From: an uncultured Eubacteriales bacterium
Lineage (GTDB): Bacteria; Bacillota; Clostridia; TANB77; CAG-508
Direction of reading: 5' to 3'
NCBI GenBank assembly: GCA_902787685.1
Contig: CADAHH010000002.1
Span: 31,251 to 95,250 of the forward strand
DNA: 64,000 nucleotides
Shown here: positions 28,391 to 36,992 of the stretch, piece after piece
Layout of the letters: every line of letters begins with the position of its first letter
Numbering within the stretch: the first letter of the stretch is position 1
Program-made: the position numbers and the translations under genes
The notes under the pieces: generated by a model
The model's database searches: none
The model's input: only the letters and a program-made list of their open reading frames with translations
Told to the model about the DNA's origin: nothing

Positions 28391-28636
28391 CAGTTAGATA
28401 ATATATATTAATGAATTGATGAGTTCGACCTACTCGCAGTTCTGAAGCCGTTATCGATTATTTGATTATTTTAATTATTATATAAACGGCGTGCATAAAA
28501 TATTAAGTGCCAGTAATTGCGGTTCAGAACGTTAACATTTTAACATAGTATATTCCGTGGCTATAAAATAGTTTTTTTCTCATACATAAAACGGCTGGAG
28601 AACGGAAGAAATGAATTAATATATATTATCTAACTG
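28391..28636. repeat. Structured ~187-bp element, copy 1, inside a perfect 22-bp inverted repeat (ncRNA or MITE-like)
   Basis: Core 28421-28607 shares blocks with 36779-36966; arms CAGTTAGATAATATATATTAAT at 28391-28412 and 28615-28636. Confidence 0.8.
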
Positions 28637-28709
28637 CAAATTAGAAAAAATGTATATAAAATTTATCACTTTTTATCAAAAAATATATTAAGAAAGGAAT
28701 ATTTTAGTA

Positions 28710-28859
28710 ATGAATAATACTGATATATCTTATTTAATGAATCTTTTAAATAAAATGGATAAAGACCAACTAAAAAATGGTTTAGATAAAGTTAACCAAC
28801 TATTAAGCCCTGAAGAAAAACAAAAAATAATACAGGCATTAAATCGCAAAGATAAATAG
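28710..28859 (+). CDS. Small hypothetical protein (49 aa)
   Basis: Not in ORF track; SD AGAAAGGA; MNNTDISYLMNLLNKMDKDQLKNGLDKVNQLLSPEEKQKIIQALNRKDK; first gene of a three-gene + strand unit. Confidence 0.65.
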   Translation: MNNTDISYLMNLLNKMDKDQLKNGLDKVNQLLSPEEKQKIIQALNRKDK

Positions 28860-28897
28860 TCAAATTCTTGAATGCGTAAGAGTGGAGGTGTTTATAT

Positions 28898-29296
28898 TTG
28901 GATAATAATATATCAGAAGTTTTCAAAACAATATTAAGCAATAATTCTACATCTTCTACTAATAAAGAAAGTTCAAAAGAATCTCTAAACATCACTCCTG
29001 AAATGATAACTCAATTAGCAAATACTATTAAATCAAGTAATTCTTCAAATGATACTAATAATACTTCAAGTTCAAATTCTGGAAATAACCTTGATTTAGA
29101 TTTTGACACAATATTAAAAATAAAAAATATTATAGAGGCATTTAATAAAAAAGATGATGCAAAATCTAATCTACTTTATTCTCTAAAGCCATATTTAAGA
29201 GAATCTAGGCAAAAAAAAATTGATCAATATATAAATCTATTTAAATTATCAGGTATAACAAAATTATTAAAAAAAGAAAAAGGAGATGTAATTTAA
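28898..29296 (+). CDS. Hypothetical protein
   Basis: SD GGAGGTG; Ser/Asn-rich linker then NLLYSLKPYLRESRQKKIDQY helix. Confidence 0.75.
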   Translation: MDNNISEVFKTILSNNSTSSTNKESSKESLNITPEMITQLANTIKSSNSSNDTNNTSSSNSGNNLDLDFDTILKIKNIIEAFNKKDDAKSNLLYSLKPYLRESRQKKIDQYINLFKLSGITKLLKKEKGDVI

Positions 29297-29604
29297 TGCC
29301 ACTTTTTCGCTTTCCACGCTTTCCTTTTCCTAATAATTATTCCTACTTACATTCTAATTATTATAAAGGCATCTATAACAAACCTAATTTACCTACAAAT
29401 AATGAAAATAAATCCAATGTAATAATTGATTCTAATAAACAAAAAAATAGTTCAAAAAATGATGATGCTTATTTTTTTGAACTATTTGGTTTAAAATTAT
29501 ATTTTGATGATGTATTATTAATATGCCTGATTTTCTTTTTATATCAGGAAGGTGTAAAAGATGACGAGCTATTTATAAGCTTAATATTATTGCTATTAAG
29601 CTAA
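29296..29604 (+). CDS. Hypothetical protein with hydrophobic C-terminus
   Basis: SD AAAGGAG, TAATG overlap; Pro/Tyr/Phe-rich N-terminus; DDVLLICLIFFLYQEG C-terminus. Confidence 0.75.
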   Translation: MPLFRFPRFPFPNNYSYLHSNYYKGIYNKPNLPTNNENKSNVIIDSNKQKNSSKNDDAYFFELFGLKLYFDDVLLICLIFFLYQEGVKDDELFISLILLLLS

Positions 29605-29627
29605 ATTAAATATAACAACGAAAGATG

Positions 29628-29782
29628 AAGTTATTCACAATTAGCTTTTAAACAAATCAAAAACGAGTATTGACAAGTATAATTATCTATAAATAATCTT
29701 TGATTGAAAAAGAATTAAATTTTGACAAGGCAAAATAAAGTTATTCACTATTAGCTTTTAAACAAATCAAAAACGAGTATTG
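29628..29782. repeat. 45-bp direct repeat, two copies, period 110 bp
   Basis: AAGTTATTCAC(A/T)ATTAGCTTTTAAACAAATCAAAAACGAGTATTG at 29628-29672 and 29738-29782, one mismatch. Confidence 0.8.
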
Positions 29783-29788
29783 CTAGGC

Positions 29789-29849
29789 AAAATTGTATGA
29801 AAAAAGCGGAACATACATATTGTATTTGAGCATTTTTTCATACAATTTT
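29789..29849. terminator. Long hairpin downstream of minC
   Basis: Perfect 17-bp arms AAAATTGTATGAAAAAA / TTTTTTCATACAATTTT. Confidence 0.6.
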
Positions 29850-29878
29850 AACAACGCAAGACGAAGTTTTTCATTTGT

Positions 29879-34379: not shown

Positions 34380-34409
34380 AATAACTTATCCCTTCATTAT
34401 TGTTTTATA

Positions 34410-35450
34410 TTAGTGCCTTTTTCTACTGTTAATTAATACACTTTTTAACTTTTCTAAATCTTCTAAAGTTTTTCCAGTTCCATTTACTACACAATCTAAT
34501 GGCGATTCTGCAATTATAACTGGCATGTTTATTTCTTGGCTCAAAAGTTTATCTAAATTTTGAATTAAAGCTCCTCCACCAGCTAAATATACTCCTTTTT
34601 CTACTAAATCTGCAGCAAGTTCTGGAGGAGTCTTTTCTAATGTTTGTTTGACTGTATTTATTATTTTATAAATTGATTCTCCCATTGCTTCCATTATTTG
34701 TGAAGAAGTAATAGTTATATTACGAGGAAGTCCTGTTTTTAAATCCCTACCTCTAATTTCCATAGGTGTATCTGTCATAAGTGGTAATGCACATCCTATA
34801 GATATTTTTATTTGTTCTGCTGTTGTTTCACCTATAGCAATATTTTCTTTTCTTTTTATATATTCAATAATATCCTCATCTAATTCATCTCCAGCTATTC
34901 TTAAAGAATTGCTAACAACTATGCCACCTAAAGAAATAACTGCAACTTCAGTTGTTCCTCCACCAATATCAATAATCATATTTCCACATGGCTCTCCAAC
35001 TTTTATTCCAGCTCCAATTGCAGCTGCCATAGGTTCTTCAATTAAATAAACCTCTTTGGCCCCAGCTTGTGTTATAGTTTCTTCAACAGCTCTTTCTTCA
35101 ACTTCAGTAATTCCTGAAGGTACGCCAACAACAACTCTAGGTCTTCCAACATTATATCTAGAACATACTTTTTTAAACATGTTTTTTAACATTAAACACG
35201 TTGCTGTAAAATCTGCAATAACTCCATCTTTCATTGGCCTAACTGCTTCTATTGTATCAGGAGTTCTTCCAAGCATTTCTTTTGCTTCAAATCCTGTTGC
35301 TTTTATTTCTCCTGTTTTTTTATCTATTGCAACTACAGAAGGCTCTTTTAAAACAATACCTTTACCTTTTAAAGTAATTAAAATATTTGCTGTTCCTAAA
35401 TCTATTCCCATATCTTTAGAACCAAATTTAAAAAAATTAAGAAGTTTCAT
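34410..35450 (-). CDS. mreB: Actin-like rod shape protein MreB
   Basis: GIDLGTAN, EEPMAAAIGAG, DIGGGTT, LAGGGAL. Confidence 0.96.
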   Translation of the reverse strand: MKLLNFFKFGSKDMGIDLGTANILITLKGKGIVLKEPSVVAIDKKTGEIKATGFEAKEMLGRTPDTIEAVRPMKDGVIADFTATCLMLKNMFKKVCSRYNVGRPRVVVGVPSGITEVEERAVEETITQAGAKEVYLIEEPMAAAIGAGIKVGEPCGNMIIDIGGGTTEVAVISLGGIVVSNSLRIAGDELDEDIIEYIKRKENIAIGETTAEQIKISIGCALPLMTDTPMEIRGRDLKTGLPRNITITSSQIMEAMGESIYKIINTVKQTLEKTPPELAADLVEKGVYLAGGGALIQNLDKLLSQEINMPVIIAESPLDCVVNGTGKTLEDLEKLKSVLINSRKRH

Positions 35451-35524
35451 GGCTTATTTCACTTTCCTCTCATGAATTATTTCTTTAAAGTTACAATTTA
35501 TATAAAAGAATGATGTATGAACTT

Positions 35525-35587
35525 GGAGGTTTGAATTCGGAGGTCAGAGGTTGGACGTCCTACATCCTACTTCCTTCCTCTAACTTT
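35525..35587. repeat. Degenerate heptamer array (hairpin arrangement)
   Basis: ggaggtt tgaattc ggaggtc agaggtt ggacgtc, then ctacatc ctacttc cttcctc. Confidence 0.7.
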
Positions 35588-35604
35588 ATTCTCTCACAAT
35601 TAGT

Positions 35605-36322
35605 CTACATATCTACTTTGTTTATTTGTAATTTCCAATCTTTAATAGACATTATACTAGTGTACTCTGATTTTCCAATAACAATATGATCTAATAGTTT
35701 TATCCCTAATAAATTAGCAGAATTTTCTAATTTATATGTTACTTCAAAATCCTGCATACTTGGAGTTGACATTCCGGCTCGGATGATTATGAACAAGTAT
35801 AATTTTTGGAGCTGAAATTTTTACTGCTTCTGAAAGCACATCTTTCATCCCAATATTTACAAAATTCTTTCCACCAATTGCCACATCTTTTATTTTAAGA
35901 ATATTGCATTTTGTATCTAGCAAAACTACTTTTGCTATTTCTACTTTTTCATATTGCATATCACTCATTAGTATTTTTACAATATCATTTGGTTCTTTAA
36001 TTTTTATTTTTTGGTAATTTAAAGGTTGGTTCATTCTACTTGCAAGCTCACAAACAGCTTTAAGTTGTATTGCTTTAATTTTACCCATTCCTTTAATTTT
36101 TATTAGTTCTTCTATTTCTAAGTCTCTCAAAAAATTTAAATTGTTGAAATTTTGTTCATCATTTAATTTCAATATTTGCCTTGCTATATCTATACTTGTA
36201 TATGTTTTAGTTCCAGTTTTTATTATAATAGCTAATAACTCAGCATTACTTAAATTCTTTGCACCATATAGTTCAAGTTTTTCATATGGTCTTTCAGTTT
36301 CAGGCAATTCTTTTATTGTCAA
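35605..36322 (-). CDS. radC: RadC (JAB-domain) protein (~238 aa) with one CGG +1 frame break
   Basis: ERPYEKL, LSNAELLAII; HNHPS-CGG at 35776-35774; skipping C restores HNHPSG...PS..D and LLDHIVIG from ORF 35605..35796. Confidence 0.88.
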
Positions 36323-36358
36323 TTAAATATCCTTTCTGCCCCTAACTTTGTTATTTTA

Positions 36359-36616
36359 TTATATTTTTCTATAAATAAAAATTCCTATTGCCATTCCAAT
36401 AATACTGGCAATATTTATTTTTATTGTAAATGCAAATGTAAGTGTTAAAATGCTTAAATTCAAAACAAATGGATTTGTAATTCCAAATTCTTGTCCATAT
36501 CCTAACCACCATAATCCATTAACCTTACTTGCTAAATCTCCTAGTAACCCACCTATTACTAGTCCACATAATATAAAAATTAGCATTATCCAAAAACTTT
36601 TATCTCTTGCTGCCAT
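36359..36616 (-). CDS. Small membrane protein, DUF4321-like
   Basis: Two hydrophobic segments, PFVLNLSIL..TF.FTIKINIASIIG; lies upstream of radC as is common in Firmicutes. Confidence 0.7.
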   Translation of the reverse strand: MAARDKSFWIMLIFILCGLVIGGLLGDLASKVNGLWWLGYGQEFGITNPFVLNLSILTLTFAFTIKINIASIIGMAIGIFIYRKI

Positions 36617-36751
36617 AATTCATTCCTCCTTAGTTATTTTTCTTACGGATTTATATCTTGTAAGACTTTTATATTATATATGCATTTTAAGTTTTTTTCA
36701 AGTAGAAGATGCATATTTTCATAAAAAAGTTACAGTCCAATTTGATTTTAA

Positions 36752-36992
36752 AAATCAAATATATTTAATATTAAAATCGAGTTCGACCTACTTGCAGTTC
36801 TGAAGCCGTTTGCGATTATTATATTTTGTTTCATATTAAATAAACGGGGTGCATTTTAAATACTAGTACCAGTAATTGCGGTTCAGAACGTTAATATTTA
36901 AATATATTATAGTCCGTGGCTATGAATTTAATCATTTCTCATACTTAAAACGGCTGGAGAACGGAAATTTTAATATTAAATATATTTGATTT
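36752..36992. repeat. Structured ~188-bp element, copy 2, inside a perfect 26-bp inverted repeat
   Basis: Core 36779-36966; arms AAATCAAATATATTTAATATTAAAAT at 36752-36777 and 36967-36992. Confidence 0.8.

What the first reader, a model, noticed from the sequence alone, without database searches (positions are those of the whole stretch)
28421..36966. Unrecognised ~188-nt structured element in two copies, with conserved GC blocks and alternative pairings
Seen: 28421-28607 and 36779-36966 share GAGTTCGACCTACTYGCAGTTCTGAAGCCGTT, AAACGG.GTGCAT, CCAGTAATTGCGGTTCAGAACGTTAA, TCCGTGGCTAT and TCTCATAC.TAAAACGGCTGGAGAACGGAA. The AT-rich spacers diverge but total length is almost fixed. The 5' block GTTCTGAAGCCGTT can pair with three partners: the nearby AAACGG, the central CGGTTCAGAAC and the 3' AACGGCTGGAGAAC. 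Inference: this pattern suggests selection on structure, as for a multicopy ncRNA, a conformational switch or a non-autonomous mobile element. I cannot match it to a family I know.
Basis: partly seen in the sequence, partly recalled or inferred. Interest (0 to 1): 0.7.

Follow-up and report, generated by a model that had tools for sequence, protein, structure and literature searches.

The report
Hairpin-ended repeat element of rumen Clostridia
The two look-alike stretches are copies of a roughly 240-base, non-coding repeat bounded by 26-base inverted repeats; it is scattered in tens of copies through the genomes of a group of uncultured rumen Clostridia, occasionally flips in place, and most resembles the Correia elements of Neisseria rather than a new structured RNA.

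Summary

- **Distribution.** The unit is about 240 bp. I found it at 15 or more independent intergenic sites in two rumen Clostridia MAGs and in rumen metagenomes, mostly between housekeeping genes.
- **Conservation.** Among paralogues the blocks are 88-99% identical, the AT-rich spacers 52-75%, and the B-type repeats about 95%.
- **Short form.** A 158-bp form shares only the ends.
- **Inversion.** The segment between the repeats is inverted in situ at three orthologous loci, including copy A. At copy A, orientation follows strain lineage, so this is rare inversion and not rapid switching.
- **RNA tests.** There is no Rfam match. The core folds no better than shuffled sequence. There is one compensatory pair. 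No signal appeared in three metatranscriptomes.
- **Missing alleles.** The 'empty' alleles are microhomology deletions.

Best reading (confidence about 0.6): a non-autonomous, Correia-like hairpin (MITE-type) element. No target duplication, clean empty site or partner transposase was found. I rate it a new member of a known kind, of moderate interest.

The parts
28391..28636 (+). Copy A, whole element (246 bp): left inverted repeat, 8-nt linker, 187-nt long-type core, 8-nt linker, right inverted repeat. It lies in the divergent region between the 1666-aa surface-protein gene (23007-28007, -) and a 49-aa ORF (28710-28859, +).
28391..28417 (.). Copy A left inverted-repeat arm (A-type). The perfect 22 nt CAGTTAGATAATATATATTAAT is 28391-28412. 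The inner GAATTGAT (28413-28420) is imperfect and flips with the core.
28610..28636 (.). Copy A right inverted-repeat arm. The perfect 22 nt ATTAATATATATTATCTAACTG is 28615-28636.
28421..28607 (+). Its GAGTTCGACC end and its TGGAGAACGGAA end give it polarity. It contains five GC-rich blocks.
36752..36992 (+). Copy B, whole element (241 bp). It lies between the terminator of the 306-aa LPKTG/cohesin-like gene (37068-37988, -) and the DUF4321 gene (36359-36616, -). The core is antisense to both genes.
36752..36777 (.). Copy B left inverted-repeat arm (B-type, AAATCAAATATATTTAATATTAAAAT). This is the arm sequence conserved in nearly all other copies.
36967..36992 (.). Copy B right inverted-repeat arm, 100% complementary to the left arm.
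36779..36966 (+). Copy B long-type core.
28439..28452 (+). 5' block GTTCTGAAGCCGTT. It is the inverted copy of the motif CGG(C)TNNAGAAC, which recurs in direct orientation at 28520-28530 and 28590-28603. In copy B the three sites are 36797-36810, 36879-36889 and 36949-36962.
28051..28080 (-). Context only, not part of the element: a sigma-70-like promoter match (TTGACT-18-TATAAT, 11 of 12) between copy A and the surface-protein gene start. The gene therefore does not need a promoter from the element.

Best explanation
The two stretches are copies of a non-autonomous, hairpin-ended intergenic repeat, a MITE-type element that resembles the Correia repeat enclosed elements of Neisseria.

**Anatomy (shown).** Two 22-27-bp AT-rich terminal inverted repeats enclose a directional core. 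The core starts with GAGTTCGACC and ends with TGGAGAACGGAA. Between those ends the cargo differs:
- The short type carries about 77 unrelated nt, giving 158 bp in all.

The terminal repeats come in two variants. The B-type occurs at most loci. The A-type occurs at copy A and on the short form. Repeat variants and cores combine in a modular way.

**How it most likely works (inferred).**
- The element was spread in trans by a transposase or recombinase encoded elsewhere in the genome.
- That enzyme recognises the terminal repeats plus the subterminal motif CGG(C)TNNAGAAC. The motif is present once inverted near the 5' end and twice direct, at the centre and near the 3' end.
- This would explain why these blocks are nearly invariant among paralogues while the spacers drift.

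**After insertion (shown).**
- Individual copies evolve about as fast as neighbouring intergenic DNA.
- They suffer microhomology deletions.
- They occasionally invert in situ by exchange between the two arms.
- The two arms evolve in concert.

**Side effect (inferred by analogy).** Many copies sit 20-100 nt from gene ends inside likely operons. They should be co-transcribed and form a 26-bp AU duplex, which would be a plausible RNase III substrate.
For: - **Terminal repeats.** They are present at both window copies. The same B-type repeat is conserved at 13 further loci.
- **Dispersed multicopy family.** There were 13 copies in two MAGs and 13 metagenome hits. After collapsing orthologues this gives about 15 independent long-type loci. 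Many lie at contig ends.
- **Copy number.** Depth at the element ends in run X44 is 72-121, against about 6.7 for flanking single-copy DNA.
- **Neighbours.** They are mostly housekeeping genes, in either orientation.
- **Conservation among paralogues.** Blocks are 88-99% identical, spacers 52-75%, B-type repeats 95-97%.
- **Modular ends and length classes.** The short form shares 31-34 nt at each end with copy A.
- **Deletion derivatives.** These are L145, L123 and L126/L127.
- **In-situ inversion.** Seen at locus A, at L117/L147 (243 nt, 95.5%, on the opposite strand between collinear flanks) and at the short-form locus L115/L144.
- **Concerted change of both arms.** Three positions differ between orthologues L115s and L144s, and each change is mirrored in the other arm.
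- **Weak constraint at single loci.** Variable sites across the orthologue groups are 1.8% in blocks against 5.3% in spacers. The whole element is about as divergent as its flanks.
- **Published parallels in Correia elements.** These have a 26-bp repeat, a conserved directional core, length classes, repeat variants, deletion fragments, RNase III hairpins and inversion (PMC2649163, PMC10969869).
Against: - No target-site duplication could be recognised in the AT-rich flanks.
- No clean pre-insertion empty site was found. All three 'absent' alleles are explained by deletion between short direct repeats: TTTAAT, TTTTTT and AATATTAAAT.
- No autonomous element with the same ends and no transposase or recombinase was seen in the window or in the held loci.
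- There is no similarity in plasmid, phage or viral-contig collections.
- The long-type internal blocks are conserved although the short form shows they are not needed between the ends. Their role as enzyme-binding sites is only an inference.
- Blocks also change somewhat more slowly than spacers between orthologues (Fisher p = 0.004, driven by one locus). Some locus-level constraint is therefore not excluded.
Confidence: 0.6

Rival explanations
1. A family of programmed invertible switches (invertons). A site-specific recombinase encoded elsewhere flips the core between the inverted repeats, and the conserved blocks are a regulatory module or recombinase accessory sites. Copy A would then phase-vary the 20-kb surface-protein operon at 7748-28007.
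For: - Three of about ten loci with orthologues are inverted exactly between the repeats.
- The repeat arms are kept identical by concerted changes.
- Copy A heads an operon of six giant surface proteins, a classic target of phase variation.
- The core is directional.
Against: - At locus A, orientation is fixed by lineage in 11 assemblies. F and R alleles differ by 4-5 substitutions in the segment and track the right flank. L138 and L139 are flank recombinants.
- Most copies sit between housekeeping genes.
- A good sigma-70-like promoter lies between copy A and the operon, and no conserved outward promoter is evident.
- No recombinase was found among the ten window ORFs scanned, chosen because their function was not obvious.
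- Orthologues at four other loci (L109/L111/L143, L115/L119/L144, L118/L151, L146/L150) and the four filled locus-B assemblies keep one orientation.
- Logan unitigs of a 140x sample gave no minor-orientation signal, but they could hardly show one.
Confidence: 0.12
2. A domesticated cis-acting RNA module. It is co-transcribed with neighbouring genes. The 26-bp stem is cut or bound by RNase III, and the core's three mutually exclusive helices tune the stability or termination of the flanking mRNAs. This is compatible with a mobile origin.
For: - Copies lie 20-100 nt from gene ends, often between same-strand genes.
- The element with its repeat stem folds far better than shuffles, z = -4.3 and -6.0.
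- The changes seen at paired positions of the 5' block are all wobble-compatible or compensated on the + strand (L119, L146).
- Blocks vary about three times less than spacers between orthologues.
- There is a Correia/RNase III precedent (PMC2649163).
Against: - The core alone is not more stable than shuffles on either strand.
- There is only one compensatory pair.
- Copies occur in both orientations relative to transcription, with 4 loci sense and 2 antisense among tandem contexts, and they invert.
- No RNA contig covers copy B in three metatranscriptomes. Coverage was low and contig-based.
Confidence: 0.15
3. An independently transcribed multicopy small RNA gene or riboswitch-like conformational switch.
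For: - The GC blocks are conserved and three alternative pairings exist.
- The length is fixed.
Against: - There is no Rfam family.
- No conserved promoter or terminator was seen in or around copy A, the only copy scanned.
- There is no thermodynamic signal for the core.
- Covariation is essentially absent.
- There was zero depth in metatranscriptomes despite tens of genomic copies.
- The element inverts and decays like neutral DNA at single loci.
Confidence: 0.05
4. A REP/REPIN-type element mobilised by a RAYT (an HUH Y1 transposase) acting on single-stranded hairpins.
For: - A textbook REPIN-like unit occupies the same intergenic spot in one strain. It has a GTAG head plus the palindrome GGGCGATTTTAATCGCCC, in inverted pairs (L124). 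The clade therefore probably has such a system.
- No target duplication is seen.
Against: - The element's two ends are not inverted copies of a GTAG-headed palindrome.
- The arms are 26-bp AT-rich simple repeats.
- The core is large and asymmetric.
Confidence: 0.05

Closest known systems
Correia repeat enclosed elements (CREE / Correia elements / nemis) of Neisseria
   Same: - A 26-bp terminal inverted repeat encloses a conserved core with two different ends, giving it direction.
- There are discrete length classes caused by presence or absence of internal sequence.
- There are two repeat-end variants.
- There are tens to hundreds of intergenic copies and deletion fragments.
- The hairpin is long enough for RNase III.
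- The core inverts in situ between the repeats (PMC2649163; PMC10969869, citing Elbeyioglu et al. 2017).

All of these architectural features were seen here.
   Different: - The host is different: AT-rich rumen Clostridia, whereas CREE are reported only in Neisseria.
- Sequence similarity to the Correia repeat was not tested.
- The long form is bigger (240-246 bp against about 155 bp).
- It has five GC-rich blocks with a thrice-repeated CGG(C)TNNAGAAC motif in place of an IHF site.
- No TA target duplication or clean insertion polymorphism could be shown here.
Bacterial MITEs in general (e.g. ERIC, RUP, BOX, bcr1, MITEAba12)
   Same: The element is small, non-coding, bounded by terminal inverted repeats, multicopy and intergenic, and potentially folds as RNA.
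   Different: - The cognate IS or transposase is unknown.
- No target-site duplication was recognised.
- The ends and the cargo are exchanged in a modular way between the long and short forms.
Invertons / invertible promoters (fimS, C. difficile cwpV and flgB switches, Bacteroides capsule promoters)
   Same: - Inverted repeats of 20-30 bp flank a segment of about 200 bp that is found in both orientations.
- One copy lies upstream of a surface-protein operon.
   Different: - Orientation is lineage-fixed and not mixed.
- Most copies are next to housekeeping genes.
- No recombinase was found.
- No promoter or terminator logic is evident.
REPIN/REP sequences with RAYT transposases
   Same: These are hairpin-forming intergenic repeats without an obvious target duplication. 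A REPIN-like unit replaces the element in strain L124.
   Different: The element lacks paired GTAG-headed palindromes and is much longer.

Membership tests
MITE (miniature inverted-repeat transposable element) | Small (under about 600 bp) and non-coding | tested here: met
   The element is 241-246 bp (long form) or 158 bp (short form). Spacers diverge freely, so no conserved reading frame is possible.
MITE (miniature inverted-repeat transposable element) | Terminal inverted repeats conserved among copies | tested here: met
   The B-type 26-bp repeat is 95-97% identical across 13 independent loci. The A-type repeat is shared in its inner 13 nt plus linker by copy A and the short form.
MITE (miniature inverted-repeat transposable element) | Many dispersed copies at unrelated sites | tested here: met
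   There are about 15 independent long-type loci in the held contigs. The depth ratio is about 11-18x in X44.
MITE (miniature inverted-repeat transposable element) | Target-site duplication flanking the repeats | tested here: inconclusive
   No consistent direct repeat lies outside the arms. The flanks are about 90% A+T, so short repeats are uninformative.
MITE (miniature inverted-repeat transposable element) | Insertion polymorphism with a clean empty site | tested here: not met
   Locus B is 'empty' in L126 and L127, but part of one arm is retained between TTTAAT repeats. L123 and L145 are deletions between TTTTTT and AATATTAAAT repeats. No extra insertions were found in about 40 kb of further strain contigs.
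MITE (miniature inverted-repeat transposable element) | A related autonomous IS with the same ends | tested here: inconclusive
   None was found in the window, the held loci, plasmids, phages or viral contigs.
Correia repeat enclosed element (CREE) | A 26-bp inverted repeat enclosing a conserved, directional core, with long and short classes | tested here: met
   compared with the description in PMC2649163.
Correia repeat enclosed element (CREE) | Sequence homology to the Correia repeat and occurrence in Neisseria | not tested
   No Correia sequence was at hand to align. The hosts here are Clostridia MAGs, while CREE are reported only from Neisseria (PMC2649163). I treat it as an analogue and do not file it as a member.
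Correia repeat enclosed element (CREE) | Inversion of the core between the repeats | tested here: met
   Seen at locus A, at L117/L147 and at L115s/L144s.
Inverton (recombinase-driven phase-variable switch) | Both orientations coexist within one clonal population | tested here: inconclusive
   Only Logan unitigs were available. They cannot resolve a minor junction across a 22-26-bp repeat. The one raw-read run had no reads on the locus.
Inverton (recombinase-driven phase-variable switch) | Orientation is independent of strain lineage (frequent switching) | tested here: not met
   Orientation at locus A correlates perfectly with the lineage of the segment and right flank in 11 assemblies.
Inverton (recombinase-driven phase-variable switch) | A dedicated tyrosine or serine recombinase | tested here: inconclusive
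   None was found among the ten window ORFs scanned, chosen because their function was not obvious. Such a gene could lie anywhere in the genome.
Known structured RNA family (Rfam) | Match to a covariance model | tested here: not met
   There were 0 matches at the gathering score in the whole window. Only chance-level hits (E>=1.4) were found around copies A and B and the short form.
Structured ncRNA in general | Covariation and a thermodynamic signal beyond the flanking stem | tested here: not met
   Core z-scores are -0.04 to -0.98. There is 1 compensatory pair across the 33 tested pairs of the three alternative helices, and 21 of 500 shuffles reach that value.
REPIN / REP | Inverted pair of GTAG-headed short palindromes | tested here: not met
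   The element's ends are not of this form. The L124 allele at locus B is.

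The most novel reading that the evidence does not exclude
The long-type core is not just transposon baggage. It would be an orientation-dependent regulatory cassette that the host uses at many loci. Its three mutually exclusive helices, or three CGG(C)TNNAGAAC protein sites, would act as a switch. A trans-acting recombinase would flip the cassette, so a single enzyme could reprogramme many operons, including the 20-kb adhesin operon downstream of copy A.
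Probability: 0.1. Interest if true: 0.7.

Novelty: new member of a known kind. Interest (0 to 1): 0.35.

Why it matters
**Annotation.** About 240 bp at tens of intergenic sites in a clade of uncultured rumen Clostridia is a repeat family absent from Rfam and from the plasmid, phage and viral collections searched. It breaks assemblies, since many copies lie at contig ends. It can also create chimeric contigs (L153).

**Biology.** It looks like a Firmicute counterpart of the Correia elements. It is a hairpin-ended repeat with a directional core that inverts in place, has arms that evolve in concert, and sits inside operons where it must be transcribed. It therefore offers a second, independent system for asking how such elements spread and how they affect neighbouring genes.

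**Limits.** It is not evidence for a new class of structured RNA, and its mobilising enzyme is unknown.

Tried and rejected
1. **Known RNA family.** Rfam gave nothing at the gathering threshold on the whole window, nor in E-value mode on copy A, copy B and the short form.
2. **Phage or plasmid origin.** Viral-contig scans with two blocks gave only chance 15- and 16-mers with no other block nearby. The repeat 25-mer gave 0 hits. blastn against plasmids and phages gave no match.
3. **Rapid phase variation at copy A.** I first suspected this when L120 and six assemblies showed the reverse orientation. I rejected it as the main reading after the flank and segment distance matrices showed that orientation is lineage-fixed.
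4. **'Empty site' at locus B as proof of transposition.** I rejected this because the allele keeps 18 nt of one arm and is bounded by TTTAAT repeats. It resembles the other microhomology deletions.
5. **A 'minimal' form.** The joint 28430>28596 in Logan contigs suggested a form of the element without cargo. It is instead explained by short-type elements sharing 31-34 nt ends with copy A.
6. **Read-level test of mixed orientation.**
   - Unitigs are too short to span the repeat informatively.
   - The only raw-read run had no reads on the locus.
7. **Promoter inside the element.** Only weak, non-conserved sigma-70-like matches were found.
8. **Recombinase or transposase in the window.** None was found among the ten ORFs scanned.
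9. **Orthologous window sites for other copies.** None of the other loci maps to the window.
10. **Strain-specific insertions.** None was found in two further 20-kb neighbourhoods.
11. **Integron attC, LexA (Cheo) box and CodY box resemblances.** I considered these by eye and dropped them, because the motif order or spacing does not fit. No tool test was run.

Full report
**1. The observation.** The two stretches exist as described: 28421-28607 and 36779-36966, on the same strand, 84% identical. Three of the quoted blocks were searched in the window and each occurs exactly twice, with no match in 100 shuffles; the other two blocks were located in both copies.

Copy A has 28391-28417 with 28610-28636, of which 22 nt are perfect. 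Copy B has 36752-36777 with 36967-36992, 26 nt, perfect. The two pairs of arms differ in sequence. The units are therefore 28391-28636 (246 bp) and 36752-36992 (241 bp). A profile search finds no third copy in the window.

**2. A multicopy family.**
- One genome-collection scan with two core blocks returned 13 further copies in two uncultured Clostridia MAGs, UBA9784 and SRR10912542_bin.48, plus two chance hits.
- One metagenome scan with the 5' block returned 13 more from rumen metagenomes.
- After collapsing orthologues there are about 15 independent long-type loci.
- Sequencing-run look-ups place the organism in cattle, sheep and goat gut samples. The window is identical to an ENA rumen scaffold.
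- Nearly all copies carry the B-type arms AAATCRAATATATTTAATATTAAAAT.
- In run X44, which behaves like DNA, depth at the element ends is 72-121 against about 6.7 for flanking DNA. That implies some 11-18 near-identical copies per genome. Figures from X2 are higher but inflated by overlapping unitigs.
- Neighbouring genes are mostly housekeeping: thioredoxin/miaB, pth/RNase G-like, ybaB/recR, murE, a helicase, an ABC-F protein. The element lies 20-100 nt from gene ends and in either orientation relative to them.
- Nothing similar exists in the plasmid, phage or viral-contig collections, nor in Rfam.

**3. Anatomy.** Among 14 independent copies the blocks are 88-99% identical, the spacers 52-75%, and the B-type arms 95-97%.

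The core has polarity. It always begins GAGTTCGACC and ends TGGAGAACGGAA.

A second, short form of 158 bp (L115 about 854-1011; L144 about 13812-13969) has A-type arms. It has the same 8-nt linkers and the same two core ends as copy A, but about 77 nt of unrelated cargo. This explains the 'skips 165' joints in Logan contigs.

Copy A is therefore a combination of A-type ends with the long-type cargo, so ends and cargo are modular.

Inside the long cargo the motif CGG(C)TNNAGAAC occurs three times: once inverted (5' block) and twice direct (centre and 3' block).

**4. Inversion.**
- *Locus A.* Contigs from 11 assemblies have collinear flanks. The segment between the perfect 22-nt arms is forward in five (the window, L131, L132, L136, L137) and reverse in six (L133-L135, L138, L139, L120). 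The imperfect 8-nt linkers travel with the core.
- *L117 and L147.* These orthologues show the same thing cleanly: 243 nt at 95.5% on the opposite strand between collinear flanks.
- *Short form.* It is inverted between orthologues L115 and L144.

The locus A core is 97% identical between orientations but only about 84% identical to other copies. This is therefore inversion in situ and not re-insertion.

Orientation at locus A follows lineage perfectly. Forward and reverse alleles differ by 4-5 substitutions in the segment and track the right flank. L138 and L139 have a window-like left flank and are recombinants. Orthologues at four other loci (L109/L111/L143, L115/L119/L144, L118/L151, L146/L150) and the four filled locus-B assemblies keep one orientation. 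I read this as rare inversion between the arms and not as a fast switch.

The arms evolve in concert. L115s and L144s differ at three arm positions, and each change is mirrored in the other arm. The A/G variant of the B-type arm is likewise mirrored in L107, L113, L117 and L147.

**5. Presence and absence.** Locus B is filled in the window, L122, L125 and L130.
- It is 'empty' in L126 and L127, which keep 18 nt of one arm. The junctions share TTTAAT.
- It is removed with extra flank in L123, between T-runs.
- It is replaced in L124 by a different, REPIN-like unit.
- L145 is the L113 copy with an internal deletion between AATATTAAAT repeats.

All of these are microhomology deletions or allele replacements. 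None is a clean pre-insertion site. I found no target-site duplication, and no strain-specific insertion in two further 20-kb neighbourhoods.

**6. Tests of the RNA reading.**
- With the arms, the elements fold much better than shuffles (z = -4.3 and -6.0).
- The core alone does not, on either strand (z from -0.04 to -0.98).
- RNAalifold recovers the arm stem, a small 5' hairpin and the helix between the 5' and 3' blocks. The block pairs never vary.
- Counting pairs for the three alternative helices gives one compensatory change (L146: C-G to U-A in the helix between the 5' and central blocks) and a few wobble-compatible transitions. That is too little to call selection on structure.
- Three true metatranscriptomes show neighbouring genes at depth about 3 but nothing over copy B, despite the element's copy number. 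This is weak negative evidence, because it is based on contigs.

**7. Constraint at single loci.** Between orthologues, blocks vary at 1.8% of sites and spacers at 5.3% (Fisher p = 0.004, driven by one locus). The element as a whole diverges about as much as its flanks. The contrast among paralogues is far larger. This pattern fits conservation acting mainly on the source copies that spread, meaning sequences needed in cis for propagation. Any constraint at each resident copy is at most mild.

**8. Conclusion and comparison.** The best-supported reading is a non-autonomous, hairpin-ended repeat of the MITE kind.

Its closest described analogue is the Correia repeat enclosed element of Neisseria. 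That element has a 26-bp repeat, a conserved directional core, long and short classes, two repeat variants, deletion fragments, RNase III hairpins and reported inversion (PMC2649163; PMC10969869).

I do not file it as a CREE. The host is unrelated and sequence similarity was not tested.

Its MITE membership is incomplete. Size, terminal repeats and dispersed copies are met. Target duplication is inconclusive. A clean empty site was not found. The partner enzyme is unknown.

- *Shown:* the anatomy, the copy family, the inversions, the concerted arms, the deletions, and the lack of an RNA signal.
- *Inferred:* mobilisation in trans, the blocks as enzyme-binding sites, and RNase III processing of co-transcribed copies.

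Rival readings are a recombinase-driven inverton family, a domesticated cis-RNA module, an ncRNA gene and a REPIN. They are given with their tests in the rival section.

**9. Verdict.** The feature is real and not previously catalogued in the resources searched, but it belongs to a known kind. Interest is moderate (0.35). It would rise if mixed orientations within one strain, or a function for the GC blocks, were demonstrated.

Noticed in passing
window 7748-28007 (- strand): Six consecutive very large secreted or surface proteins of 733, 716, 550, 1517, 1496 and 1666 aa. Precomputed Pfam marks on the 1666-aa product are SdrD_B and faint CLIPPER. They form an operon-like block of about 20 kb directly downstream of copy A. 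A further 1671-aa CLIPPER-like gene lies just beyond the window end (L154 14916-19931) and has no element upstream.
   Followed up: partly
L124 about 2500-2850 (locus B in sample ERZ14209547): In this strain the element is replaced by a different unit. It consists of two inverted copies of TGTAGGGGCGATTTTAATCGCCCG, a GTAG head followed by a short palindrome. This looks like a REPIN, which suggests a RAYT-type system in the same clade.
   Followed up: no
window 28375-28381 and 36730-36736; L117 and L147 flanks: The heptamer GTTACAG (or its near-variant GTTACAA at copy A) recurs 15-30 nt outside the arms of several copies. It sits on both sides as an outer inverted pair at L117/L147, and in the L124 allele. 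During inversion it stays with the flanks. Its meaning is unknown.
   Followed up: partly
L140 1-50 (locus A in sample ERZ1029116): The contig end reads GAGTTCGACCTCTGTAGTA next to the A-type arm. That is a short-type-like core at the very locus where all other strains have the long core. It is either a cargo swap between element types or an assembly artefact at a repeat.
   Followed up: no
L153 (metagenome contig JAEEGJ010294646.1): The left flank is locus B and the right flank is that of the L146/L150 locus, joined through one element. This is either an assembly chimera or recombination between copies.
   Followed up: no
window 35605-36322 (- strand): radC is split into a 192-aa and a 55-63-aa reading frame that overlap. 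The same split is called in most related assemblies (not in L126), so it looks like a fixed frameshift or programmed feature and not a sequencing error.
   Followed up: no
window 46025-48100 (- strand): A 691-aa TraG/VirD4-type type IV coupling protein (Pfam E = 2.5e-84) sits among housekeeping genes (prfA, thrS, dnaJ-like). No other conjugation genes are evident nearby.
   Followed up: no
window 37274-37560 (within gene 37068-37988, -): There is a long Asn/Asp-rich low-complexity run in the LPKTG-anchored cohesin-like protein. It attracts very high, clearly cross-mapping depth in metatranscriptome contigs.
   Followed up: no
L148 about 1470-1560: A remnant of a short-type element (a B-like arm, then GAGTTCGACCCTTGTA...) lies about 70 nt from a full long-type copy. 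Elements can therefore cluster or nest.
   Followed up: no
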